A stretch of DNA of 64,000 nucleotides from assembly GCA_001800675.1 (NCBI GenBank), contig MGVW01000005.1, positions 7,493 through 71,492 of the forward strand, given 5' to 3'. Position numbers and translations under genes: made by a program. The DNA is from Euryarchaeota archaeon RBG_13_57_23. Its GTDB lineage: Archaea > Thermoplasmatota > Thermoplasmata > UBA10834. Under the pieces are notes generated by a model. The model ran no database searches. It was not told where the DNA came from and saw only the letters and a program-made list of their open reading frames with translations. This document shows, one piece after another, positions 184 through 64,000 of the stretch (positions within the stretch are counted from its first letter, which is position 1; each line of letters begins with the position of its first letter).

Positions 184-702
184 CTAGCCCGACCCGCCCT
201 GGCTCGGGACTCGCCTGTTCTCGCTGGGGAGCGAGAACTCCCTCTCGAGCAGGCCGAGCTGTGTGGTCTCGAACGTCCTAGGGTCGATGGGGACGATCAA
301 GAAGGAGCCCGACATCGCCACCTCTTCGTTGGTCAACTGGATCGCCTTCATGACCGCGCCGAACCCGTTCTCTGTCACGAGGTATTCCAACCCGTCGAGC
401 AGAACCACAGCACCTGCGTTCGTCTTGATGAAATCCGATATGGTCCCATGGATCTTCATCAGCCTGGTGGGCTCAAGGCTTATGATGCCGCCCGTCGGCT
501 TCGACGCCTTCGCGATCCACATGATCGGGCAATCCACACCGTGCAACTGCTGGACTCGATTTGGGTGGCTACGGGTTATCACAAGACCCCTGTGACCCTC
601 GGCGAGGAGCCTCTTGAAGGCCGCATAGGCTCGTACGACCCCCTTGTCGGTGTAGAGGTACGAGCTTCCGCCCTTCAGGATTGGCTCCTCCGCGTCGTTC
701 AT
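184..702 (-). CDS. DUF835 domain protein (KaiC-associated)
   Basis: 172-aa ORF with a conserved DUF835-like core (LDGLEYLVTENGF...). It lies immediately downstream of a KaiC-like ATPase in the same orientation with a 9-nt gap. Confidence 0.7.
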   Translation of the reverse strand: MNDAEEPILKGGSSYLYTDKGVVRAYAAFKRLLAEGHRGLVITRSHPNRVQQLHGVDCPIMWIAKASKPTGGIISLEPTRLMKIHGTISDFIKTNAGAVVLLDGLEYLVTENGFGAVMKAIQLTNEEVAMSGSFLIVPIDPRTFETTQLGLLEREFSLPSENRRVPSQGGSG

Positions 703-711
703 AGCTCCTGT

Positions 712-1386
712 CTACCTCAGGCCAGCTTGGACTGCCAGGCCCTCGTCGGTTATGTCGATCAATTGTCTTCCAGTAGTGTGTTTCGTCCCTCTCATCTTGA
801 GGACCTCGAGGAACTTCCGCCTCACCTTCTCCTCCTCGGGGTATGAGAGCATTATCACACCATCGACCATGTAGGATTCCTGGCTGTGCGAGATATCGTC
901 GTACGACATTTCGGCCGTGACGATGGTCACGCAATTGAACGCCTTCAGGTATGCGAAGAGCTCGTGCATGAACTCCCTGGTCTCGCCCCTCCACTGCAAC
1001 ATGTCCGTCATGGGCGTGATCGGGTCGATCACTATCCTCTGGGGCTGGTACTGCTCGATCTTCTTCTTGATTATGTTCAGCATCTCGCTCGGGTTCTTGA
1101 GAAGAGTGGGGCCGATGTCGATGAAGCTCACCAAGCCCTTCTCGACCTGCTCCTGGTTGTAGAACGAGAAGGATGACAGGAATTTCTGGACGAGCCACTG
1201 TGGCTCGGATATGGCGGTGATGTAAAGGCCCTTCTCATTCCCCTTGGCCCCGTGGAACAGGCTCTGGACCGCGAAAGTCGTCTTGCCGGTACCAGGCTCT
1301 CCGGCGACGAGGATGGCTGCTGGGAACGGAAACCCACCTTGGAGCATGCCGTCGAGACCAGGGATGCCGGTCGTCTTGCGGGTCAT
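712..1386 (-). CDS. KaiC-like RecA-superfamily ATPase (single domain)
   Basis: Walker A GEPGTGKTTFAVQ and a Walker B-like VIDPITPM, preceded by an IPGLDGML motif. The start is refined to ATG at 1386 (MTRKTTGIPGLDGML); the track ORF extends to 1467 and overlaps the upstream gene. Confidence 0.85.
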   Translation of the reverse strand: MTRKTTGIPGLDGMLQGGFPFPAAILVAGEPGTGKTTFAVQSLFHGAKGNEKGLYITAISEPQWLVQKFLSSFSFYNQEQVEKGLVSFIDIGPTLLKNPSEMLNIIKKKIEQYQPQRIVIDPITPMTDMLQWRGETREFMHELFAYLKAFNCVTIVTAEMSYDDISHSQESYMVDGVIMLSYPEEEKVRRKFLEVLKMRGTKHTTGRQLIDITDEGLAVQAGLR

Positions 1387-1387
1387 T

Positions 1388-1795
1388 TCAGAGCACCTCG
1401 GTATCGATGACGAACACGCATCGGTCATCTCCCTTCGACACGCACTTCCGCTCGTGGCAGTAGACATCCTTCCCTGTGCGCTCCTCGAATACCTTGGCCA
1501 GTATGCCTCTCAACATATGGCATGTGGGGGAATCGGCGCTCGATGCCTCGACGGAGCCCACGACGGCGATCGTGTCGCCCTCGAACGATATGTCCGTGAC
1601 CCATCCTTCTTTGATGAGCACTTCTCGGACCCTGTTGAGCTCCGTGCCTGCAGACCTAAGGAGACTGTCACCGATTATGCGCCCACTCCTGTAGAACATG
1701 CCATGGGACGCAAAGGTCATGACGGTCTCAAACAAACGCTTGATCTCCAAGAGCTCTTCCCTGCGAAGCCTGATGCTGCGCTCTGGTTGCTCCAT
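1388..1795 (-). CDS. V4R-domain-like small protein with C-terminal Cys/His cluster
   Basis: 135-aa ORF. Its stop lies 1 nt from the KaiC start (TGAaATG), so it is the first gene of a V4R-KaiC-DUF835 operon. It has a C-terminal CH...C...C pattern. Confidence 0.55.
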   Translation of the reverse strand: MEQPERSIRLRREELLEIKRLFETVMTFASHGMFYRSGRIIGDSLLRSAGTELNRVREVLIKEGWVTDISFEGDTIAVVGSVEASSADSPTCHMLRGILAKVFEERTGKDVYCHERKCVSKGDDRCVFVIDTEVL

Positions 1796-44200: not shown

Positions 44201-44950
44201 ATGGCAACCAAGATTGCCGAGAGGGACCGCTGCGTCACGGGCGTCGAGGGCCTCGACACCATCCTCTATGGCGGGATTCCCCGGTCCAACACAGTCCTCC
44301 TGACTGGCAGCTGCGGTACTGGGAAGACATCTCTGGCGCTCGAGTTCCTGATGCACGGGGCCGTCAAGGGCGAGAACTCTCTGTTCGTGAGCGTCACCGA
44401 GAATTCAGAGAAGCTGTTGCAGAACATCATACCATACAAGTTCTTCGACAAGAGCCTCATCAAGTCCGGCCGGCTCGTTTTCGTGGATATGCCTGTGATG
44501 TATGAGCGCCTCGGCCTCACGAAGGCCGAGCTGAGCATGGAGGAGATCGAGCTGCTGGTCAACTCGCTCGCGAGCCTGGCCAAGGAGCTCCAGGCCAAGC
44601 GTCTGGTGATGGACTCCATCACATCGGTCTGCTACAAGCTGAAGACTTCGGAGAAGATCAGGGATTTCATCCTGAAGCTGTCCAAGGCCTTGTCAGACCT
44701 CGGGTGCACTTCGATACTGGTGGGAGAAGTGACCGCCGATTCCACTTCATACTCCACATTCGGGGTAGAAGAGGCCATCGCAGATGGCATCATACTCATG
44801 GCGAACATGGAGAGGCGCGGGGACCTCCTCCGGACGCTCCAAGTGATAAAGATGCGTGGCACGATGCACTCTCGGGCCAAGTACGTGCTAGACCTCACGC
44901 CGGTTGGTGTTCTCTTGGTTCCGCTCCTGAAAGGAGGTAGCACAGGATGA
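44201..44950 (+). CDS. KaiC-like RecA-superfamily ATPase, paralog 1 (intact P-loop)
   Basis: GVEGLDTILYGGIPRSNTVLLTGSCGTGKTSLALEF and Walker B RLVMDSITS. Confidence 0.8.
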   Translation: MATKIAERDRCVTGVEGLDTILYGGIPRSNTVLLTGSCGTGKTSLALEFLMHGAVKGENSLFVSVTENSEKLLQNIIPYKFFDKSLIKSGRLVFVDMPVMYERLGLTKAELSMEEIELLVNSLASLAKELQAKRLVMDSITSVCYKLKTSEKIRDFILKLSKALSDLGCTSILVGEVTADSTSYSTFGVEEAIADGIILMANMERRGDLLRTLQVIKMRGTMHSRAKYVLDLTPVGVLLVPLLKGGSTG

Positions 44951-55546: not shown

Positions 55547-58500
55547 ATGGTCACTAGAGTCGAGGATACGGGAACCACGGACGAGGTACTGTCCCTGATG
55601 CATCCGACTGTGTCAGAGTGGTTCAGGTCGAAGTTCGGAGAGGTCACGGAGGCCCAAGGCATGGCAGTGCCCCTCATCCATGCCCGCAGGAATGTGGTCG
55701 TATCGTCTCCGACAGGGTCAGGAAAGACACTGACCGCATTCCTCGCCATAATCAATGAGCTGATACTGCTGGCAGAGAAGGGGCAGTTGGAGGATAGGAT
55801 CTACGCTGTCTACGTGTCACCCCTCAAGGCTCTGGCCAACGACATCAACGAGAACCTGATCAAGCCCTTGTCGGAGATATCCGAGCTCTTCAGGGCAAAG
55901 GGCTTGACGCCTCCTGAGGTCAAGGTGGCCGTCAGGACGGGCGACACCCTTCCGAGCGAGAGGCAGAGACAAGCGCGCTCGCCCCCTCACATATTCATCA
56001 CTACTCCGGAATCCTTGTCTCTTGTACTGGCGACACCAGTATTCAGCACCAAATTCGCTGGCGTGGACTACGTGGTCGTGGACGAGGTGCATGAGATATG
56101 CGATTCTAAGCGAGGCGTGGCTCTTTCGCTCGCCCTCGAACGTCTCCAGAATCTGTGCAAGAAGGAGTTCGTCAGAATAGGGCTCTCTGCAACAGTTGCC
56201 CCGCTCGAGCAGGTCGCGGAGTACCTGGCGGGGCTCAGCGACGGCAGACCCAGGGAGATCAACGTTGTCGAGGTGTTCAAACAGCGAGATCTCGACCTCA
56301 AAGTGCTCTGCCCGACCAAGGACATGACCGCCCTCTCGTTCGAAGTGGTCAACTCGAAGATGTACGACATGCTGAAGGACATGATCAACCAGCACAAGAC
56401 CACCCTGGTATTCACCAACACCAGGAGCGGGGCCGAGAGCGTCGTCTACAAGCTCAAGGAGCGCGGGCTCGAGAATATCGGTACGCATCACGGGAGCTTG
56501 AGCAGGGAGACCAGGATGGATGTAGAGGGAAGCCTGAGGAACGGGCTCCTGAAAGCGGTGGTCTCGTCCACATCTCTGGAGCTTGGAATCGACATCGGTT
56601 CCATCGACCTCGTTGTCCAGATAGGATCTCCAAAATCGGTGGCAAAGGGCTTGCAACGGGTGGGCAGGGCCGGGCACCAGTACGGGGGCACCTCGACAGG
56701 CAGGATGGTGGTCTTCGAGAGCGACGACCTGGTGGAGTGCGCTGTGCTCTGCAGGGCGGCTCATAGGAAGATGATCGATCGGGTGACGATTCCGGTCAAT
56801 TCGTTGGATGTGCTCGCTCAGACTCTCGTGGGGATGTCCATAGAACGCAGGTGGAAGGTCGAGGATGCCTTCGACCTGATCAGACGTTCGTACTGTTACA
56901 GGGACTTGCCGCTGGAGCAGTTCGATAGCGTCCTCAAGTACCTTGGCGGAAAGGAACAGTTCGAGGGCATATACGCCAAGCTCTGGTACGATGACAAGGA
57001 ACGCGTGTTCGGAAGGAAGCGCGGGGCCAGGATGATATATTATCTGAACCAGGGGACGATCCCTGAGGAGGCGGACTACCAGGTCTACTCCGAGCGCGGC
57101 TCGCCCGTGGGCTCCCTCTCCGAGAAATTCGTTGAGCGCCTCTCACAGGGCGACATATTCGTCCTTGGGGGCAGGAGCTACGAGTTCATCAAGTCCAAAG
57201 CGACCAAGGTATTCGTCAAGAGCGCTAGTGGGCGCAAGCCGACGGTTCCGTCCTGGACCGGCGAGATGCTGCCCAGGAGCTTCGACCTCTCTGTAGCCAT
57301 CGGCCAATTCCGAGGCGAGATGGAGCAGCGCCTCGGGACGATGCCTGAGCAGGCGATCGCAGCGTGGCTGAGGGAGGAATTCGGTCTGGATGAGGGGTCC
57401 TCTACAACCATAGTCAACTACTTCAAGGAGCAAAAGGCCGTCGCGAAGGTGCCGACGGATTCTAGGCTCCTGGTCGAAGGGTACGTCGACGCGACGGGCA
57501 ACAAGAGCGCAATCTTCCACTTCCCGTTCGGCAGGCGTGTCAACGACGCCCTCAGCAGGGCGTACGCATCGGTCCTGTCCGAGAGGCTGCGATCGAATGT
57601 GACCGTATCGGTGACAGACGACAGCTTCATGGTCACAGTCCCCAGGAGTTTCAAGCTTGAGGAGCTCGGCGACATGCTGCGCTCAGAGAACTTGGAAAGG
57701 ATACTGAGGAACGCTGTTCGCGATTCCGAATTGTTCTCGCAGCGGTTCAGACACGTCGCGACCAGGAGCTTCATGGTCCTCAGGAATTACAAGGGAAAGG
57801 AACTCTCCGTGTCGAGGCAACAGCTCCGGTCGAGCCGTCTTCTCGACGCTCTTCACGAGGTCGAGAAATTCCCTGTCATAGCCGAGACCTATGAGGAGAT
57901 ACTGACCGAGGTCATGGACATGGAGCACGCGAGGGAGGTGCTCGCATCCATTGAGAGAGGCGAGAGGAGGATAGAGTATCTGCCATTCTCTGGTGTTCCC
58001 TCACCATTCGCGCACAATGTGATCCTCGTGGGCGTGTCCGACATCGTGCTGATGGAGGACAGGAGCATGCTGCTCAGGGAACTCCACAGGAAGGTGCTGG
58101 AACGGGCGCTGGGGGAGGAGGCCGTATCCGAGTATCAATTCGATCCCGATGTCGTCGAGGAGTACTACGCCGCGAAGTTCCCCCGAATCCAGTCCAAGGA
58201 GGACATCATCGGGGCGCTCCGTCTCGTCGGCCCGATGAACATATTCAGAGAGAAGGGAGAGAACATCTTCTCGCATTCGAAGGTGGCGTTCGACAAGCTC
58301 AGATCATGGGGGACAGAGCTTCTGAGGGAAGGCAAGATCCACTCGGTCTGGATAGGGGAGGATCTGTACGTCTCCTCTGAGGAGTATCCGCTCTACGCGT
58401 GCCTTCACTCGCGCCAGGTTGACCTGGGTCCGAGCGAGAAGGCAATCGTGGACGAGCTCAAGAAATCCCCGAGGACCCAGAGCGAGCTCACGGGGCTCAT

Positions 58501-60937
58501 CAAGCTTGACAAGGAAGAGATGAGAGAATCCCTGAGGAAGCTGGAGACCGCGAACATCGTTTTCAGGTCAGACCTGAGGGGCCAGACAGTGGTCTATTCG
58601 CTTGGGGAGTTCGAGTCGATGCCGAGGAAGGACTGTCTCATGGAGGCGGTGTCAAGACATCTCGCATATCACGCCCCGATTACCATCGACGACCTCGCGT
58701 ACGAGGTCGGAGTAACGGAGCAGGAAGCGGAGGAGGCACTCAATGAATTGGCCATGGACGAAATCGTCGTCTCAGGAAGGTTCGTTGTGGGTGAGCAACA
58801 GCAGTTCATGTTGGCCAGGGACTACCTCCGTCTCAAATCCGAGGGCAGACCTGTCTACGACAGGGAGACCGTACGGGCGTATTCGGAGCGGAAGCAATTC
58901 GGCAAAGTGGGTTCGGTCAGGGAGTTCTTCGACAAGTTCGGCGAGGCCGGGATGATCTATGACATCTTCCAGCGGGTCGACGGATTTGACATGCAGGAGT
59001 TCGGAGATCTCCGTAGCAAAGGGGAGATACTGCTCGGGAGGTTCGTGCGCGGCAGACTGCGCTATGTGCTTGCGGTAGACGCACCACATTTCCTTGGGGT
59101 TTATCGGCGCAATGAACTGGACAGATATGAATCTGAGATTGTTCGGACCATCGAGAGGTTGGGCTCAGGGACATTCCTGGAGATCGCCCAAGCCACTGGA
59201 TTTCCTCCTGATCTGATGAGAGAGCACTTCGATTCTCTTGATAGGAAAGGGTATCTCCTGAGAGAGTACGACGAGGCCGAGTCGTGGAGTTCTAGGAACG
59301 TCTACACAGTCTGCAAATTGGAGCCGGAGATCGAGAACCCGTACGAGCGCATAATAAGGAAATATCTCAGGGGGTTCGGCCCGGTGACGGTTCTCCAAGC
59401 CGCCTCTTACCTTGACGTGGATCCGAGCGAGGCCGAGGTACTCCTCAGAGGCACAGGTGCCAAGAGCATATTCGTGGGCCTCGAGCGGACCGAGATGTTC
59501 ATACTGCCTGACGAGCTCAGGGAGCTCGACCACGACCACGTTCCCGACGAGAGCCTGCGGATCCTCTCGCTTTACGACTCCTTCCTGAGCGACAAGTGGA
59601 CGGAGATAACTTCGAGGTTCGGGGAAGGCTGGATATTCCCACTTGTCAGGCACGGTAGAATCGTTGGAATGGTCGAGAAGTGGCTGCTCGCTGGCTCGGT
59701 CGAGATCCGCGAGATACTGCTGGACGACCCGGACACTCTCCCTCAACTCATACACTCGTTGGACTCGATGATGTCATTCTACAACGCACTGGGCGTTGAG
59801 ATAATCCGGGTACGAAGCATACTTGGGACAGATGTCTCCGAGGTCAAGGACGGGCTTAAGAGCGAGTTCCTCAAGCACGGCTACTCCGAATCGAACGGAA
59901 TGTTGGTCAAGGGCAGGCTTGTCACGGAATGCTTCGATCTTCAGCAGATACTGGAAGTCGCATTCTCCATGCAGCACCTGACTGGCGCCTCGAAGTTCAA
60001 GGACATGAATCAGGCGCTGGAGGCTTATGGAGGGCTTCGCTCGAACCAGGAGGCGCTTCTCCGTGTCAAGAAGTTCGAGCCGATCCCCAAGCTCCTGAAG
60101 CGCGGAGTGGTCCTCAGAGGTCATCTCATACCGGACAGGGTCGGCTTCTGTACCCCTGAGGCGGCCAGCTTGTACAGATCCGCGCGGTTCAGGGACCTCA
60201 GCGCAGACGAGAAGATCGTCACGCGCATCATCAAAGACCAGGAGCCTGTCAAGAGGGACCGACTGCTGGATCTGTCCCCGCTCGGACACGATGACACAAT
60301 CGAGGCACTCAAGGCCTTGTACAGTTCATCCAGGGTCTACATCGACAATTCCAATGCGTATGTCTCCTCCAAGCGACAGAGGACTTCGAAGGAGGCCGCA
60401 TGGACGAAGGTCATGGGACGAATCTTTGACAGCTTCGGGATAATGAGCGCCGAGTCCCTTGCGCTCCTGCTCGGCCACGAGATACCGATGCGCGAGCTGA
60501 GGCGCTGTCTACGGAGTCTGGAGGATGAGGGCAGATTGGTCAAGGGTTACATGCTCCGAGGGTCCGGGACCTTGCACTGGGCCAGCACCGCAGCCTTTGA
60601 GATGCTAGGCAAGGCGAAGTTCTCCGAGATCTTCGTCATGTCCCCGGGGGACATGGTCATCCAGTATCTCAGGGCCACCTTCCGCAACCTGTTGCCCGAG
60701 ACGGGCAGGTTCGCCATATTCCGCGGCACCGAGCTCATCGGATCGTTCGAGGGGAAGTTGAAGGGCGGCACTCTTGAGATATCGAATGCGCAGGGCGAAC
60801 CGGGGTGCGAGAGGATCATATCGGACTACGCGAAGAAGCTCGGCCTTGCTGCATCTGAGCGCGAGGAGGGGCGGATGTCCGAGTGGGAAATCATCGATTT
60901 CTACCAGAAGACTCACCCTGGCATGGGCGCCGACTGA
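55547..60937 (+). CDS. lhr: Lhr-family ATP-dependent helicase, long form (1796 aa)
   Basis: DEAD/DEAH motifs (SPTGSGKTL, DEVH, SAT), an Lhr-core-like winged helix and domain 4, then a C-terminal extension of about 900 aa. The start may be at the MHPTVSEWF Met (55601). Confidence 0.9.
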   Translation: MVTRVEDTGTTDEVLSLMHPTVSEWFRSKFGEVTEAQGMAVPLIHARRNVVVSSPTGSGKTLTAFLAIINELILLAEKGQLEDRIYAVYVSPLKALANDINENLIKPLSEISELFRAKGLTPPEVKVAVRTGDTLPSERQRQARSPPHIFITTPESLSLVLATPVFSTKFAGVDYVVVDEVHEICDSKRGVALSLALERLQNLCKKEFVRIGLSATVAPLEQVAEYLAGLSDGRPREINVVEVFKQRDLDLKVLCPTKDMTALSFEVVNSKMYDMLKDMINQHKTTLVFTNTRSGAESVVYKLKERGLENIGTHHGSLSRETRMDVEGSLRNGLLKAVVSSTSLELGIDIGSIDLVVQIGSPKSVAKGLQRVGRAGHQYGGTSTGRMVVFESDDLVECAVLCRAAHRKMIDRVTIPVNSLDVLAQTLVGMSIERRWKVEDAFDLIRRSYCYRDLPLEQFDSVLKYLGGKEQFEGIYAKLWYDDKERVFGRKRGARMIYYLNQGTIPEEADYQVYSERGSPVGSLSEKFVERLSQGDIFVLGGRSYEFIKSKATKVFVKSASGRKPTVPSWTGEMLPRSFDLSVAIGQFRGEMEQRLGTMPEQAIAAWLREEFGLDEGSSTTIVNYFKEQKAVAKVPTDSRLLVEGYVDATGNKSAIFHFPFGRRVNDALSRAYASVLSERLRSNVTVSVTDDSFMVTVPRSFKLEELGDMLRSENLERILRNAVRDSELFSQRFRHVATRSFMVLRNYKGKELSVSRQQLRSSRLLDALHEVEKFPVIAETYEEILTEVMDMEHAREVLASIERGERRIEYLPFSGVPSPFAHNVILVGVSDIVLMEDRSMLLRELHRKVLERALGEEAVSEYQFDPDVVEEYYAAKFPRIQSKEDIIGALRLVGPMNIFREKGENIFSHSKVAFDKLRSWGTELLREGKIHSVWIGEDLYVSSEEYPLYACLHSRQVDLGPSEKAIVDELKKSPRTQSELTGLIKLDKEEMRESLRKLETANIVFRSDLRGQTVVYSLGEFESMPRKDCLMEAVSRHLAYHAPITIDDLAYEVGVTEQEAEEALNELAMDEIVVSGRFVVGEQQQFMLARDYLRLKSEGRPVYDRETVRAYSERKQFGKVGSVREFFDKFGEAGMIYDIFQRVDGFDMQEFGDLRSKGEILLGRFVRGRLRYVLAVDAPHFLGVYRRNELDRYESEIVRTIERLGSGTFLEIAQATGFPPDLMREHFDSLDRKGYLLREYDEAESWSSRNVYTVCKLEPEIENPYERIIRKYLRGFGPVTVLQAASYLDVDPSEAEVLLRGTGAKSIFVGLERTEMFILPDELRELDHDHVPDESLRILSLYDSFLSDKWTEITSRFGEGWIFPLVRHGRIVGMVEKWLLAGSVEIREILLDDPDTLPQLIHSLDSMMSFYNALGVEIIRVRSILGTDVSEVKDGLKSEFLKHGYSESNGMLVKGRLVTECFDLQQILEVAFSMQHLTGASKFKDMNQALEAYGGLRSNQEALLRVKKFEPIPKLLKRGVVLRGHLIPDRVGFCTPEAASLYRSARFRDLSADEKIVTRIIKDQEPVKRDRLLDLSPLGHDDTIEALKALYSSSRVYIDNSNAYVSSKRQRTSKEAAWTKVMGRIFDSFGIMSAESLALLLGHEIPMRELRRCLRSLEDEGRLVKGYMLRGSGTLHWASTAAFEMLGKAKFSEIFVMSPGDMVIQYLRATFRNLLPETGRFAIFRGTELIGSFEGKLKGGTLEISNAQGEPGCERIISDYAKKLGLAASEREEGRMSEWEIIDFYQKTHPGMGAD

Positions 60938-60958: not shown

Positions 60959-61282
60959 GTGTCCGGATCTAATCCGATTCGTGGTCGATATCGGTTTGTT
61001 GGGCGGAGGATCCTGTCCCTCTTCCTCAAGCCCATGAGGGAGATACCTTTGGCCGCCATGGGGGCGCTAGTGGACGGAGTGGTTGCCGCGATTGCGTCTT
61101 TCTACTTGCCTTCTGAGGTTTTCGCGATCGAGGAGTGGATAGTGCTCGTGATCAATTTCCTGGTCGTCGTATCCATCACACACTTGTTCTTCCACTTCAT
61201 CGAGGATTTGTTGTTGGTCGGCAGGATGGTCCTCGATTGGAAGCCCACAGTGGTTATTGTCGGGCTCGTCGCGATAGCCTAG
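60959..61282 (+). CDS. hypothetical small membrane protein
   Basis: 107 aa, two hydrophobic helices; weak call. Confidence 0.3.
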   Translation: MSGSNPIRGRYRFVGRRILSLFLKPMREIPLAAMGALVDGVVAAIASFYLPSEVFAIEEWIVLVINFLVVVSITHLFFHFIEDLLLVGRMVLDWKPTVVIVGLVAIA

Positions 61283-61312: not shown

Positions 61313-62167
61313 CTATCTTACCTCTGAGAAAGCGCACGCGTCTTCCTGAGCTGCAGATCTCTCGTTGAAGTACAGGTACTCCTGGGCATAGCCGGAGTAT
61401 TCTCCGAATCTCTCAGAGGCAAACTCGCTGAGCCTACGATACGATCCTTTCACGTGATATAGCCTGCCGAGAGCGCGTTCGATCCAGATATCGATCGGGA
61501 AAGCCTCGAGCTTTCCGAAACCGAAAAGCGAGACGCAGTCCGAGACCTTCTCACCGACGCCGTCTAGTTCCAAGAGCCTCTCCTTGAGGTCCGGGTACTC
61601 CAGTCGAGTCATGGATTTCATCTCGTTCGGCGTGAGAGAGTCGCACAATCCAGTCACATACTTGGCCCTATATCCGAGACCGCAACGCTCAAGCTCCTTC
61701 TCCGAGGCCTCTCCGAGCCTCTTGATGGTCGGGAAGGCGTGCGCCCCACCCGGGATGGGCTCTCCGTATTTCGTGCAGAGCGTGTCGATCATCTTCTTGA
61801 TGCGCGGTATGTTGGCATATGTTGCAAGAGTGTAGCTGACAAGACACTCCCACTCATCCATTTTGACGATCCGGAGACCGCGGTACTCCTTCATCCCTCG
61901 CACCAGGACTTCGTCCTTGGCCAGGGCTCTTTGGATTCTGGCGACGTCGTCATCTGCTCGCAGATACTCTCGGACTAGCCTCACGACACTGTTGTCCTCG
62001 GTGCTTGCATTGATGGACACTGATCTGGCAGACTGCCTCAGCGTCAGCTGGTATTTCCCCACGATGCCTGTCCATGAACCTCGCTCTAGCTCCTTCCACC
62101 TGAAGGTTTGACCACAATCCAGAGTGAGTGTCAGGTCAAGCGGGCTAATCTCTGTCTTGAAAATCAT
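61313..62167 (-). CDS. ogg: N-glycosylase/DNA lyase (Ogg-type HhH-GPD 8-oxoguanine DNA glycosylase)
   Basis: N-terminal LDCGQTFRW, HhH-GPD LELDGVGEKVSDCVSLFGFG with catalytic Lys and Asp. Confidence 0.8.
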   Translation of the reverse strand: MIFKTEISPLDLTLTLDCGQTFRWKELERGSWTGIVGKYQLTLRQSARSVSINASTEDNSVVRLVREYLRADDDVARIQRALAKDEVLVRGMKEYRGLRIVKMDEWECLVSYTLATYANIPRIKKMIDTLCTKYGEPIPGGAHAFPTIKRLGEASEKELERCGLGYRAKYVTGLCDSLTPNEMKSMTRLEYPDLKERLLELDGVGEKVSDCVSLFGFGKLEAFPIDIWIERALGRLYHVKGSYRRLSEFASERFGEYSGYAQEYLYFNERSAAQEDACAFSEVR

Positions 62168-62187: not shown

Positions 62188-62670
62188 TCATCTCTTGTAT
62201 CCGATCATTCGCAGGAACTTCTTCCTGTCGTCAGCGTCCTTCTCCGTCTCGACGCCCTTCGGCCGCTCCCCGTCAATCACTCCCAAGACGCCTCTTCCGC
62301 GTTCGTTCTCGGCGACGATGACATCGACAGGGTTCGCGGTAGCGCAAAAGATGGAACAGACTTCCTGCAAATCCTTGATCCTGTTGAGCACATTGATAGG
62401 ATAGGCGTTCTCGATCACGACGATGAAAGTGTGACCCGAGCCGATCCTCCCCGCGTTATCGGCTGCCACTTTCTTGAGGCGGTCGTCGTTACCATCAACT
62501 CGTATCAGACACGGTCCAGACGCCTCGCAGAATGCCAGCCCGAACTTGGCTCCGGGAACAGTGCTCACAATTGCCTCGTAGAGGTCCTCTGCAGTCTTGA
62601 TGAAGTGAGTCTGGCCGATGATCACGTTCGCGTTCTCCGGGATTTCGACCCTCACCGATTTTATATCCAT
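62188..62670 (-). CDS. PF04008-like protein ('adenosine-specific kinase' family, DUF355-type)
   Basis: Start refined to MDIKSVRVEIPENANVIIGQTHFIKTAEDL; conserved GSGHTF and CATANP segments. The family assignment is from memory and not verified. Confidence 0.5.
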   Translation of the reverse strand: MDIKSVRVEIPENANVIIGQTHFIKTAEDLYEAIVSTVPGAKFGLAFCEASGPCLIRVDGNDDRLKKVAADNAGRIGSGHTFIVVIENAYPINVLNRIKDLQEVCSIFCATANPVDVIVAENERGRGVLGVIDGERPKGVETEKDADDRKKFLRMIGYKR

Positions 62671-62846
62671 CTCTACCCCCACGTCTCCGCAACGACAATC
62701 GCGTGGAAATAAGTTTCTCCGGATGCCAGTCGTAGCCTCAGACTGTGTTGGAAAAACGCCGTTATCGAAAATCGAAATCAAAACGATTAACTATATATCC
62801 AGGCATACCGTAAACTGCATCTGAAATCCGAAGGAGGCCCCTCTAG

Positions 62847-64000
62847 TTGTCAGACTCCAGCGGGGACAAGCTCTGCCCGATATGCGATTCCCCCCTACAA
62901 CCCGGTTCGAAGAAATGTGGTTTCTGTGGGACCGACCTCTCGATCTTCGATATCGAGACTGAAACAGGCAGATCCACATCGGAACCAGCACCCTCTCAAC
63001 CCAAGGCATCACTAGAGAACAAGATCGAGGAGATACTCAGGCCTAGACCCGTAGAAGTGACCACTACACCACCTCCTGCGCCGTCTCCGCCTGCTGTGAA
63101 GAGGGCCGAGCCTCCTAAGCCAGAACCGCCGAGGCCGGAACCACGGAAGGAGGGGCGAACCATCTCCGAGGTCGTGGAGTCGAAGAGGCTTCCGGAGCCA
63201 CCGAAACCAGCTCCTCCAGTCGTTGCTGAAGAACCTAAGGAGTACTTCGAGTGCCCACAATGCGGCTCGGCGGTGGAGAACACCGCTTCTTCCTGTCCCA
63301 AGTGTGGAGTGTTGTTCACAGAAGAGGGCGCCGATTCATTCGAGTGCCCCGCTTGCAGTACTCTTGTCCCCCTCGATGCCAAGACGTGTCCAGGATGCGG
63401 TGCGGTTTTCGTTGAGGAAGAGGAAGCAGCCGCTGCACCGCCTCCGGCAACTCAGAAGCCTCCGGAGAAACCCGTCGCGGAGGTTAGAATCCCTCCCGCG
63501 AAGGCCGAGACAAAGGCAGCAGTGAAGGAGGAAGAGGAGGCTGCCGAAAAAGGCAAAGGCTTCATGGGATTGTTCAAACGCAAGAAGGAACCAGAGCCGA
63601 CACCTCCCCATGCGAAGCCCGCCCCGTCACCTGCCGCTCCAGCTCCGAAAGCTCCCGCTCCTGCCGGGAGACCGGCGGAAGCACAAGTCGTCAGAGAGGT
63701 CGCTCCCGCACCTGCCCCCAGGCCGTCGGTGAGGCCGGCTGCTGCTGAAGCACCCGGTGGGAGGGATAAGGGCAAGGACCTCGCGAGGATGGTGGCCGAG
63801 ATGAAGCCTCTTCTCGCCGTTGCTAGGGAGAAGGATGTCGACATCGGCGAGAGCAAGCTGTTGATCGACGAAGCTGCGGTTGCGGGAAGAGAGCGTCAGC
63901 TTGACAAGGCGATCGAGCTCGTGGACAAATCCAGGTTGGTGCTGATGGGTAAGATCGACGCGCAACTCGGACAGCTGGTCCTTCAGCTTAACGAGGAGAC
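62847..64000 (+). CDS. multi-zinc-ribbon, proline-rich, C-terminal coiled-coil protein; 3' end beyond window
   Basis: Not in the ORF track, because the ORF is open at the window end. TTG start at 62847 immediately after an in-frame TAG, with an SD GAAGGAGG 10 nt upstream and a TATA-like CTATATAT about 45 nt upstream. Three CxxC-N9-12-CxxC ribbons (CPICDSPLQPGSKKCGFCG; CPQCGSAVENTASSCPKCG; CPACSTLVPLDAKTCPGCG), PxxP-rich linkers, then a helical region. Confidence 0.65.
   Translation, partial: MSDSSGDKLCPICDSPLQPGSKKCGFCGTDLSIFDIETETGRSTSEPAPSQPKASLENKIEEILRPRPVEVTTTPPPAPSPPAVKRAEPPKPEPPRPEPRKEGRTISEVVESKRLPEPPKPAPPVVAEEPKEYFECPQCGSAVENTASSCPKCGVLFTEEGADSFECPACSTLVPLDAKTCPGCGAVFVEEEEAAAAPPPATQKPPEKPVAEVRIPPAKAETKAAVKEEEEAAEKGKGFMGLFKRKKEPEPTPPHAKPAPSPAAPAPKAPAPAGRPAEAQVVREVAPAPAPRPSVRPAAAEAPGGRDKGKDLARMVAEMKPLLAVAREKDVDIGESKLLIDEAAVAGRERQLDKAIELVDKSRLVLMGKIDAQLGQLVLQLNEE

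What the first reader, a model, noticed from the sequence alone, without database searches (positions are those of the whole stretch)
62847..64000. Uncalled SD/TTG-initiated ORF for a triple zinc-ribbon, proline-rich, coiled-coil protein running off the window
Frame 3 of the plus strand is open from the TTG at 62847 to the window end, more than 384 codons. The TTG sits directly after an in-frame TAG, behind GAAGGAGG and a TATA-like box. The ORF track omits it because it has no stop inside the window. The product has three Cys4 zinc ribbons separated by PxxP-rich low-complexity linkers (PEPPKPAPP, PAPSPAAPAPKAPAPAG), then a charged helical region. The minus-strand ORFs listed over this span (62996-63965) are antisense shadows of the proline codons. 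Architectures of this kind, ribbons plus flexible linkers plus coiled coil, resemble membrane-proximal scaffolds or cell-division and secretion adaptors.
Basis: seen in the sequence. Interest (0 to 1): 0.55.

Follow-up and report, generated by a model that had tools for sequence, protein, structure and literature searches.

The report
Conserved archaeal multi-zinc-ribbon tether protein
The open frame is the first two-thirds of a real, already deposited but uncharacterised protein of uncultured Thermoplasmata archaea: three zinc ribbons on long floppy linkers ending in a helical rod. Its gene always sits tail-to-tail with a bacterial-DnaA-like ATPase gene, which hints at a tether or hub role that has not been tested.

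Summary
The ORF runs from TTG 62847 to the window end, 384 codons, with three CxxC…CxxC ribbons, Pro-rich linkers and a helical tail.

It is not an uncalled gene. It is residues 1-384 of the 558-aa GenBank protein OGS45067.1, a hypothetical protein of Euryarchaeota archaeon RBG_13_57_23. The ORF list skipped it only because it runs off the window.

More than 240 homologs exist, and every one that carries a source name comes from an uncultured Thermoplasmata/Thermoplasmatota genome. Across 44 species the TTG start, the AGGAGG and a roughly 50-nt promoter block are conserved.

- **Architecture:** N-terminal ribbon plus an invariant DLSIFD motif, an 80-125-aa disordered linker, a double ribbon, then a 104-198-aa linker carrying a basic-aromatic motif that resembles the MinD membrane-targeting sequence.
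- **C-terminal domain:** about 250 aa made of four related helical repeats. The model is confident (pLDDT 94), but there is no Pfam family and no PDB fold match.
- **New lead:** the gene is convergently paired, 3-150 nt apart, with a roughly 700-aa DnaA/Hda-type AAA+ protein fused to DUF835 (an inactive KaiC-like domain). The pairing holds in lineages that share no other neighbours.

Best guess, at low confidence: a flexible tether or hub for that ATPase, possibly at the membrane. It resembles CdpC and YabA in layout only, and is not shown to belong to either family.

The parts
62761..62812 (+). Conserved upstream block GTTATC-N8-GAAATCAAAACGATTAACTATATATCCAGGCATACCGTA. It contains the TATA-like box (62787-62800) and is the likely promoter of the gene. 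It lies in the 176-nt divergent intergenic region shared with the adenosine-specific kinase gene.
   Evidence: Almost invariant in a 20-species alignment whose coding sequences are only 41-82 % identical. Single copy in the window. No Rfam match. The promoter role is inferred from its position and archaeal TATA/BRE conventions.
62830..62837 (+). Shine-Dalgarno-like GAAGGAGG, 9 nt upstream of the start codon.
   Evidence: Read directly. AGGAGG (AGGTGG in three loci, CGGAGG in one) sits at the same distance in the orthologous loci where the TTG is the first start after the stop.
62847..62849 (+). TTG start codon, immediately after an in-frame TAG.
   Evidence: A TTG nine codons before the first Cys is present in all 47 orthologous loci where the N-terminus was found. 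In most of them it is the only possible start after the stop. GenBank also starts the protein here.
62868..62951 (+). N-terminal C4 zinc ribbon (CPICDSPLQPGSKKCGFCG, aa 10-28) plus the invariant TDLSIFD motif. This is the most conserved part of the protein.
   Evidence: 23 invariant columns among aa 6-34 in 39 sequences. DL[STA][IL]F[DE] is present in 116 of 116 close homologs and in many distant ones. AF2 pLDDT is about 80.
62952..63236 (+). Disordered Pro/Glu/Lys-rich linker 1 (aa 36-130), with one semi-conserved short helix (aa 57-63, E62 invariant).
   Evidence: pLDDT 42-58. Length 80-125 aa in 116 homologs, with P+E+K+A making up 56 % of residues. Alignment.
63237..63416 (+). Double zinc ribbon (aa 131-190): CPQCG…CPKCG, 12-13 residues, CPAC…CPGCG.
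   Evidence: Pfam DZR aa 136-185, 43.8 bits against a cut-off of 27.3. pLDDT 78-88. Spacing is fixed at 12-13 residues.
63417..63761 (+). Disordered Pro/Ala-rich linker 2 (aa 191-305).
   Evidence: pLDDT 40-52. Length 104-198 aa, with P+E+K+A making up 64 % of residues.
63549..63590 (+). Conserved basic-aromatic short motif KGKGFMGLFKRKKE (aa 235-248) inside linker 2. Candidate amphipathic membrane-targeting or partner-docking peptide.
   Evidence: The motif pattern is found in 109 of 116 close homologs. G238 and K247 are at least 90 % conserved. Analogous motifs occur in distant subfamilies. It resembles the E. coli MinD MTS KGFLKRLFGG (PMC5471200). Its function is inferred, not tested.
63762..64000 (+). 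Start of the C-terminal helical-repeat domain (aa 306-384 of 306-558). The rest of the domain lies beyond the window.
   Evidence: AF2 on the C-domain gives pLDDT 94.5 and nine helices in a short/long pattern. The four ~62-aa units are related (hhalign 59-96 %). 166 cluster representatives match at E ≤ 1e-3. No Pfam family reaches threshold and there is no PDB fold match.

Best explanation
**Shown.** The ORF is the 5' 69 % of a real, vertically conserved, cytoplasmic protein gene of an uncultured Thermoplasmata archaeon. The protein is built like beads on a string:
- a highly conserved N-terminal zinc ribbon with a DLSIFD motif;
- a disordered Pro-rich spacer of about 100 aa;
- a double zinc ribbon;
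- a second disordered spacer of about 120 aa carrying a conserved basic-aromatic peptide;
- a C-terminal rod of about 250 aa made of four related helical repeats.

The gene is kept tail-to-tail with a gene for a roughly 700-aa protein. That partner has an N-terminal domain, a zinc ribbon, a DnaA/Hda-type AAA+ module with intact-looking ATPase motifs, and a DUF835 (inactive KaiC-like) domain.

**Inferred.** The two proteins work together. The ribbon protein acts as a long flexible tether or hub: its ribbons and short motifs dock partners, and its rod gives reach or self-association. In this way it would localise or regulate the DnaA-like ATPase. The MinD-like motif suggests this may happen at the cytoplasmic face of the membrane. 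The conserved weak TTG start suggests translation is kept low.
For: **Real gene.** A 100 % identical 558-aa deposited protein and more than 240 homologs. Substitutions concentrate at third codon positions. The TTG, SD and promoter are conserved.

**Architecture.** Pfam ribbons. AF2 gives ordered ribbons and rod with disordered linkers. The repeats are related to each other. Linker length and composition are conserved while the sequence varies. No segment is hydrophobic enough for a TM helix.

**Same architecture in distant relatives.** Homologs with only 25-30 % identity in the C-domain keep it.

**Gene pair.**
- The partner is present in all 46 close-clade loci with enough downstream DNA (41 of the 44 GTDB loci).
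- It is present in 40 of 41 informative loci of a distant clade pulled from metagenomes, always on the opposite strand and 3-151 nt away.
- It is also present in two further lineages whose other neighbours are all different (L051, L054/L055).

**Nature of the partner.** Pfam Bac_DnaA E 5e-48 and DUF835 E 2.5e-28. PDB DnaA 8btg E 5e-60. TIGR00362 scores 273 bits. NCBI names it 'DnaA/Hda family protein'. DUF835 is classed as an inactive KaiC-like domain in PMC5847659.

**Membrane idea.** The motif resembles the MinD MTS.
Against: - No direct evidence of interaction with the partner.
- Convergent genes are not co-transcribed, so the link rests on conserved adjacency alone.
- Two homologs lack the partner nearby: L053 (although only 812 nt of downstream DNA was available) and L094.
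- The MinD-like motif is absent from short-linker subfamilies, and AF2 does not model it as a helix.
- The role of a DnaA-like ATPase in archaea, which use Orc1/Cdc6 initiators, is itself unknown. Naming a process such as replication, segregation or division would be speculation.
- The C-domain has no informative structural relative.
Confidence: 0.4

Rival explanations
1. It is a CdpC-like division protein. Like Haloferax CdpC, it would anchor FtsZ (or another cytoskeletal filament) to the membrane through zinc ribbons joined by a long disordered linker. The DnaA-like neighbour would be irrelevant.
For: - CdpC (HVO_0399) has two essential zinc ribbons, a 243-aa disordered linker, an amphipathic membrane helix and a ribbon that binds FtsZ1. 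Its authors report remote multi-ribbon relatives in all Thermoplasmatota classes (bioRxiv 10.64898/2026.07.16.738847).
- Our protein has ribbons, long disordered linkers and a MinD-like basic-aromatic motif.
Against: - No match to CdpC's Pfam family DUF7093, even at E ≤ 10 on the isolated ribbon segments.
- The N-terminal ribbon is C4 with no N-terminal amphipathic helix, and the C-terminus is a helical rod rather than a ribbon.
- The paper says its Thermoplasmatota relatives lack an obvious disordered linker, so they are probably different proteins.
- This reading does not explain the conserved pairing with the AAA+ gene.
Confidence: 0.15
2. It is a conserved scaffold protein whose adjacency to the DnaA-like gene is inherited gene order with no functional meaning. 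Its real partners are elsewhere and unknown.
For: - Within the close clade the whole block Lhr-OGG-AdoK-ribbon gene-AAA+/DUF835-Yip1-ThiC-GyrBA is syntenic, so adjacency there carries little information.
- The genes are convergent, not an operon.
- Two homologs lack the partner nearby.
Against: In three further lineages every other neighbour has changed, yet the tail-to-tail partner remains within 3-150 nt. That is hard to explain without selection.
Confidence: 0.25
3. It is a nucleic-acid-binding or transcription-related zinc-ribbon protein, as the automatic JGI names 'RPABC4/Spt4' suggest, or a PTS IIA-like protein.
For: JGI names on some homologs. Zinc ribbons often bind DNA or RNA. Weak PTS_IIA similarity, E 5e-4.
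Against: - No Pfam hit to Spt4 or RPABC4 families.
- PTS_IIA scores 20.6 bits against a cut-off of 27 and covers only 45 residues.
- The ribbon segments are acidic, with net charge -2 and -6.
- The names come from generic ribbon or helical-bundle matches.
Confidence: 0.08
4. It is a spurious low-complexity ORF created by proline-rich sequence, or the shadow of a minus-strand gene.
For: About 40 % of the product is low-complexity Pro/Ala/Glu/Lys sequence, and long minus-strand ORFs overlap it.
Against: - Full-length homologs at 44-82 % identity.
- Excess of third-position substitutions in the plus frame.
- Confidently folded domains.
- Conserved start signals.
Confidence: 0.01

Closest known systems
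CdpC (HVO_0399, DUF7093) of Haloferax volcanii, the FtsZ1 membrane anchor (bioRxiv 10.64898/2026.07.16.738847)
   Same: An archaeal cytoplasmic protein made of zinc ribbons joined by a very long disordered linker. The ribbons and an amphipathic peptide serve as docking and membrane modules. The sequence evolves fast while the ribbons stay conserved.
   Different: - No DUF7093 match.
- Three C4 ribbons instead of C3H plus C4.
- No N-terminal amphipathic helix.
- A 250-aa helical rod at the C-terminus where CdpC has its FtsZ-binding ribbon.
- A conserved DnaA-like neighbour that is not reported for CdpC.
YabA of Bacillus subtilis, a hub regulator of DnaA and DnaN (PMC4705661)
   Same: It combines a helical domain, a flexible linker and a zinc-binding domain (the paper's abstract only). 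Its partner is a DnaA-type AAA+ protein. It acts as a multi-partner hub.
   Different: YabA is much smaller (about 119 aa from my own recollection, not checked here) and bacterial, with one zinc site and a tetrameric helical bundle. No sequence comparison was made here. The resemblance is functional analogy only, prompted by the gene neighbourhood.
MinD/FtsA-type amphipathic membrane-targeting sequences (E. coli MinD MTS KGFLKRLFGG, PMC5471200)
   Same: The linker motif KGKGFMGLFKRKKE (consensus KKGFxGxFKRGKKE) shares the K-G-F-hydrophobic…L-F-basic pattern and the net positive charge.
   Different: It is internal to a disordered linker rather than C-terminal. AF2 does not predict it as a helix. 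It is missing in some subfamilies. Membrane binding is untested.
Pfam DZR / Zn_ribbon_3 'zinc ribbon domain-containing proteins'
   Same: The three ribbons meet these models above threshold. NCBI names some relatives this way.
   Different: These are generic domain families with no assigned function. They do not cover the linkers or the C-terminal domain.
Rod-like helical-repeat proteins (S. aureus EbhA, spectrin/plakin, talin rod)
   Same: Tandem helical units alternating short and ~40-residue helices. These are the nearest, though non-significant, Foldseek neighbours. The same repeat builds 1,300-3,100-aa proteins in Thermoplasmata.
   Different: Foldseek E ≥ 0.1 and TM ≤ 0.3. There is no sequence relationship. 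Only a weak consensus-TPR profile hit, E 9e-5.

Membership tests
Zinc ribbon (Pfam Zn_ribbon_3 PF13248, DZR PF12773) | Two CxxC knuckles a short loop apart, with an HMM score above the gathering threshold | tested here: met
   Three C..C-x(13-15)-C..C units. Zn_ribbon_3 scores 44.3 bits against 27 and DZR 43.8 against 27.3.
Zinc ribbon (Pfam Zn_ribbon_3 PF13248, DZR PF12773) | Actual zinc binding | not testable with these tools
   Needs metal analysis of purified protein. All 12 Cys are invariant in 39 sequences.
CdpC / DUF7093 (Haloferax FtsZ1 anchor) | Sequence match to the DUF7093 family model | tested here: not met
   DUF7093 is absent from all 19 families returned for the 384-aa product at E ≤ 1 and from all 6 returned for the N-terminal ribbon segment at E ≤ 10. 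It is also not among the 25 best of 107 families listed for the double-ribbon segment.
CdpC / DUF7093 (Haloferax FtsZ1 anchor) | N-terminal C3H ribbon with an embedded N-terminal amphipathic membrane helix | tested here: not met
   The N-terminal ribbon is C4. Residues 1-6 are disordered, and the only helix near it is aa 31-34.
CdpC / DUF7093 (Haloferax FtsZ1 anchor) | Long intrinsically disordered linker between zinc ribbons | tested here: met
   Linker 1 is 80-125 aa with pLDDT 42-58.
CdpC / DUF7093 (Haloferax FtsZ1 anchor) | C-terminal C4 ribbon that binds FtsZ1, and midcell localisation | not testable with these tools
   Here the C-terminus is a helical rod, not a ribbon. FtsZ binding and localisation need experiments.
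PTS lactose/cellobiose IIA (PF02255; the JGI name on some homologs) | HMM score above the gathering threshold over the roughly 94-residue three-helix domain | tested here: not met
   20.6 bits against a cut-off of 27, and only profile positions 8-52 of 94 are matched.
RPABC4 / Spt4 (the JGI name on some homologs) | Match to the Spt4 or RPABC4 family models | tested here: not met
   Neither family appears among the Pfam hits to the 384-aa product at E ≤ 1. The name reflects a generic ribbon match.
Tetratricopeptide (TPR) repeats | 34-residue helix-turn-helix repeats, with a Pfam TPR score above threshold | tested here: inconclusive
   TPR_2 scores 14.1 bits against 27. The C-domain profile hits designed consensus TPR proteins at E 9e-5 to 2.5e-4. 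But the repeat is about 62 aa, with helices of 15-16 and 39-41 residues.
Spectrin / EbhA-type helical rods | Significant structural superposition on a solved rod repeat | tested here: not met
YabA-like DnaA hub regulators | Zinc domain that binds DnaA domain III, and helical oligomerisation domain | not tested
   An analogy suggested by the DnaA/Hda-type neighbour and the abstract of PMC4705661. No sequence or interaction test was done.
Known anti-phage defence systems (PADLOC) | Match to a defence-system protein model | tested here: not met
   No hit for the ribbon protein. The partner gives only weak generic ATPase hits. The locus is core and syntenic in 44 species.

The most novel reading that the evidence does not exclude
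The ribbon-rod protein and the DnaA/Hda-type AAA+/inactive-KaiC protein form a previously undescribed two-protein module, seen here only in Thermoplasmatota. In it, a bacterial-type initiator ATPase is tethered, possibly to the membrane, and controlled by a long zinc-ribbon hub. This would be an archaeal counterpart of DnaA-YabA- or FtsZ-CdpC-type control, linking chromosome replication or segregation to the cell envelope in archaea that otherwise use Orc1/Cdc6. In one clade, KaiC-like ATPases add a possible timing or signalling input.
Probability: 0.2. Interest if true: 0.75.

Novelty: new variant of a known kind. Interest (0 to 1): 0.4.

Why it matters
Taken alone, the finding is an ordinary window-edge artefact: the gene is already in GenBank as a hypothetical protein.

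What is worth keeping is the family behind it:
- It is conserved in every lineage of uncultured Thermoplasmata sampled here.
- Its 250-aa helical-repeat domain reaches threshold in no Pfam or NCBIfam family and matches no solved fold.
- Its non-ATG start is strikingly conserved.
- It is almost invariably paired with a bacterial-DnaA-like ATPase whose role in archaea is unknown.

If the two proteins act together, the pair offers a concrete handle on what DnaA-type ATPases do in archaea. It would also add a second example, after CdpC, of archaeal proteins made of zinc ribbons and disordered linkers acting as cellular tethers.

Tried and rejected
- **Exact look-up of the window's own protein:** tried in order to read the rest of the contig; not on record. 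The ortholog loci L001/L006 were used instead.
- **PDB sequence searches of the C-domain:** none with the single sequence. The profile gave only weak hits to designed TPR proteins.
- **Family libraries for the C-domain:** Pfam gave only a sub-threshold PTS_IIA hit. NCBIfam gave nothing on the C-domain in the full-length scan, and the ribbon hits were far below cut-off. The JGI names were rejected as generic.
- **Locus searches with diverse alignments:** failed for lack of a conserved 7-10-residue stretch. Narrower alignments worked.
- **Second homolog search with the C-domain profile:** returned mostly fragments, and the few with names were all uncultured Thermoplasmata.
- **CdpC paper supplement:** does not list OGS45067, TET91545 or any Thermoplasmatota entry. 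The HVO_0399 sequence itself could not be obtained, so no direct comparison was made.
- **Other checks:** no Rfam match in the upstream region or the gene. No PADLOC match. GC skew follows gene orientation and shows no origin-like switch near the locus. Literature searches for archaeal DnaA-like proteins with DUF835 found only the classification of DUF835 as an inactive KaiC-like domain.
Full report
**1. The observation**

Plus-strand frame 3 is open from TTG 62847 to the end of the window, 384 codons. The TTG follows an in-frame TAG. GAAGGAGG lies 9 nt upstream (62830-62837) and TTAACTATATATCC lies at 62787-62800.

The product has three CxxC…CxxC units, at aa 10-28, 136-154 and 167-185. They score above Pfam's thresholds for Zn_ribbon_3 and DZR.

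One correction: ribbons 2 and 3 form a tight double ribbon 12-13 residues apart. The two Pro-rich stretches flank that pair rather than separating all three ribbons.

**2. It is a real gene, and it is already deposited**

The translation is 100 % identical to residues 1-384 of a 558-aa protein, OGS45067.1, 'hypothetical protein A3K76_01900 [Euryarchaeota archaeon RBG_13_57_23]'. So 'uncalled' is a window-edge artefact.

- More than 240 homologs of 530-630 aa score E ≤ 1e-3.
- A scan of one genome per GTDB species found 44 loci, all in uncultured Thermoplasmata/Thermoplasmatota genomes.
- Against the ortholog in L001, differences fall 36/35/132 on codon positions 1/2/3 of the plus frame, with 104 synonymous against 62 non-synonymous codon changes. 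The overlapping minus-strand ORFs are therefore shadows.

**3. Start signals**

A TTG nine codons before the first Cys is present in all 47 orthologous loci where the N-terminus was found. In most of them it is the only start codon after the upstream stop. It is preceded by AGGAGG (AGGTGG in three loci, CGGAGG in one) in the loci where it is the first start after the stop.

A roughly 50-nt block, GTTATC-N8-GAAATCAAAACGRTTAACTATWTATCCAGGCATAYCGTA (window 62761-62812), is almost invariant in 20 species whose coding sequences are only 41-82 % identical.
- It is unique in the window and matches no Rfam family.
- I read it as the promoter (BRE/TATA) plus probably a regulator site. That is inference.
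- A conserved weak start codon suggests deliberately low translation. That is also inference.

**4. Anatomy**

Sources: the 39-sequence alignment, AlphaFold on that alignment and statistics on 116 close homologs.

- **(i) aa 1-35:** a C4 ribbon plus TDLSIFD. This is the most conserved part; DL[STA][IL]F[DE] is present in 116 of 116.
- **(ii) Linker 1:** 80-125 aa, 56 % P/E/K/A, pLDDT 42-58, with one short semi-conserved helix.
- **(iii) Double ribbon:** pLDDT 78-88.
- **(iv) Linker 2:** 104-198 aa, 64 % P/E/K/A, pLDDT 40-52. It carries KGKGFMGLFKRKKE (aa 235-248), and the motif pattern is present in 109 of 116. Similar basic-aromatic peptides recur in distant subfamilies. The motif resembles the E. 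coli MinD membrane-targeting sequence KGFLKRLFGG (PMC5471200).
- **(v) aa 306-558:** all-helical.

There is no hydrophobic segment of transmembrane strength, so I take the protein to be cytoplasmic.

Details of the C-terminal domain:
- A second AlphaFold run on the C-domain with a 23-sequence diverse alignment gave pLDDT 94.5 and pTM 0.77. The helix pattern is 24 / 15+39 / 16+41 / 15+39 / 16+18 residues.
- The four ~62-aa units are related by profile-profile comparison, with probabilities of 59-96 %.
- From the alternation of short and ~40-residue helices I infer a rod of stacked helical repeats. I could not inspect the coordinates.
- The monomer model is self-contained, so a classical coiled coil is not required. 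Coiled-coil propensity was not computed.

**5. What the C-domain is related to**

Nothing informative.
- Pfam gives only a sub-threshold PTS_IIA hit, which explains the JGI names on some homologs.
- PDB sequence search finds nothing. A profile gives only weak hits to designed consensus TPR proteins.

An exhaustive HMMER search of 1.84 billion cluster representatives found 166 at E ≤ 1e-3.
- Those at 25-30 % identity keep the same architecture: N-terminal ribbon, DLSxFD, double ribbon, C-domain.
- Others are 1,300-3,100-aa proteins with 6-13 copies of the repeat, also from Thermoplasmata.

**6. Genomic context: the main new lead**

In the window the upstream neighbours are:
- an Lhr-type helicase (55547-60937);
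- an 8-oxoguanine glycosylase (61313-62167, minus strand);
- an adenosine-specific kinase, whose real start is the ATG at 62670.

In the close clade the whole block is syntenic: Lhr-OGG-AdoK-ribbon gene-AAA+/DUF835 (opposite strand)-Yip1-ThiC-GyrB-GyrA. That alone says little.

Distant homologs are more telling. Their other neighbours are entirely different, yet they keep one neighbour: a roughly 700-aa gene on the opposite strand, tail-to-tail.
- L051, L052 and L054/L055, where the two ORFs overlap by 4 nt.
- A metagenome scan for a distant clade, labelled Methanomassiliicoccales in one NCBI record, gave 54 loci. Of the 41 with a full gene and enough downstream DNA, 40 carry the partner 3-151 nt away.
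- Exceptions are L094 and L053, where only 812 nt of downstream DNA was available.

**7. The partner**

It has an N-terminal domain of about 300 aa with a zinc ribbon, a DnaA-type AAA+ module and a C-terminal DUF835.
- Pfam Bac_DnaA E 5e-48 to 4e-68.
- PDB DnaA 8btg E 5e-60.
- TIGR00362 scores 273 bits, below the 344 cut-off; the match ends at profile position 347 of 437, consistent with the missing DNA-binding domain IV.
- In the translation I read Walker A GLGKTH, Walker B LLIDD, an arginine in RLNSRI and sensor-2 NVRELE. These motif assignments rest on my knowledge of DnaA.
- NCBI names relatives 'DnaA/Hda family protein'. DUF835 is classed as an inactive KaiC-like domain (PMC5847659).

In the distant clade, a KaiC-like ATPase and a coiled-coil protein with three ribbons lie divergently upstream. 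I found no paper on this archaeal DnaA-like/DUF835 protein.

**8. Mechanism**

What is shown: a conserved, cytoplasmic, modular protein with ordered docking modules on long disordered spacers; a selectively maintained gene pair; tightly conserved expression signals.

What I infer, at about 0.4 confidence for the overall idea: the protein is a flexible tether or hub for the DnaA-like ATPase. The ribbons and short motifs would bind partners, the rod would give reach or self-association, and the MinD-like motif may give peripheral membrane attachment.

Rivals:
- a CdpC-like FtsZ anchor (0.15);
- a scaffold with unrelated partners, where the adjacency is only inherited (0.25);
- a nucleic-acid-binding ribbon protein (0.08);
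- a spurious ORF (refuted).

**9. Comparison with what is known**

- **CdpC of Haloferax** (two ribbons, a 243-aa disordered linker, an amphipathic helix, FtsZ1 binding) is the closest characterised layout. Membership is not supported: there is no DUF7093 match, the ribbon chemistry and positions differ, and the C-terminus is different.
- **YabA** (PMC4705661) is a functional analogy for a zinc-containing, flexible hub that acts on DnaA. It was not tested.
- There is no PADLOC match.

**10. Verdict**

The finding as stated, an uncalled ORF, is an artefact of the window boundary. The gene is real and its description is largely accurate. The protein belongs to an uncharacterised family found here only in Thermoplasmatota. 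Its new helical-repeat domain and its conserved DnaA-like partner make it moderately interesting. Function remains unproven.

Noticed in passing
window 62761-62812: A roughly 50-nt upstream block is almost invariant across 20 species, far more conserved than the coding sequence and extending well beyond a TATA box. It may hold a regulator site or act as a bidirectional promoter for the divergent adenosine-kinase gene and the ribbon gene. It is single-copy in the window and has no Rfam match.
   Followed up: partly
window 62847-62849, and loci L001-L049: The non-ATG (TTG) start codon is conserved in all 47 orthologous loci where the N-terminus was found, and is usually the only possible start. 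A more distant relative also uses TTG (L053), and another has only GTG candidates (L050). This suggests selection for weak translation initiation.
   Followed up: partly
beyond the window end; L001 9685-11793 (minus strand): Archaeal proteins of about 700 aa with a bacterial DnaA/Hda-type AAA+ module (PDB DnaA E 5e-60) fused to DUF835 (inactive KaiC-like) in place of the DNA-binding domain. They are better conserved than the ribbon protein (65-93 % identity among the top hits, against 44-82 %). In the close clade the gene lies three genes from gyrB-gyrA. No literature was found.
   Followed up: partly
L060 2880-4796 (minus strand), and equivalents in L057-L099: In the distant clade, labelled Methanomassiliicoccales in one NCBI record, a KaiC-like ATPase (237 aa) and a coiled-coil protein with three tandem zinc ribbons (371 aa) lie divergently upstream of the ribbon-rod gene. 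With the DnaA-like partner they form a four-gene cluster.
   Followed up: partly
window 184-702 (minus strand), 712-1467 (minus strand) and 44201-44950 (plus strand): The window holds a stand-alone DUF835-like ORF: tblastn with the partner's DUF835 region gives E 8e-17 at 229-669. A KaiC-like ORF lies directly next to it, and a second KaiC-like ORF lies near 44.2 kb. So this genome carries further KaiC and inactive-KaiC modules.
   Followed up: no
window 55547-60937: A 1,796-aa Lhr-type helicase carries an AlkZ-like DNA glycosylase domain in its C-terminal part. It is followed by an 8-oxoguanine glycosylase gene (61313-62167, minus strand). This is a DNA-repair cluster conserved in all 44 species.
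   Followed up: no
window 60959-61282: The small hydrophobic protein between Lhr and OGG is 183-192 aa in the related loci examined, but only a 107-aa ORF here. tblastn matches only residues 88-191 of the L001 protein, and the alignment runs past the ORF's stop. This could be a truncation, a divergent N-terminus or an assembly error.
   Followed up: partly
proteins P0164, P0170, P0177, P0212 (search result, not in the window): Thermoplasmata encode 1,300-3,100-aa proteins made of 6-13 copies of the same ~62-aa helical repeat. Some have a C-terminal Cys-rich RING/PHD-like finger, and many of the ~1,500-aa ones share a conserved N-terminus (SYLKxxQL). They are uncharacterised.
   Followed up: no
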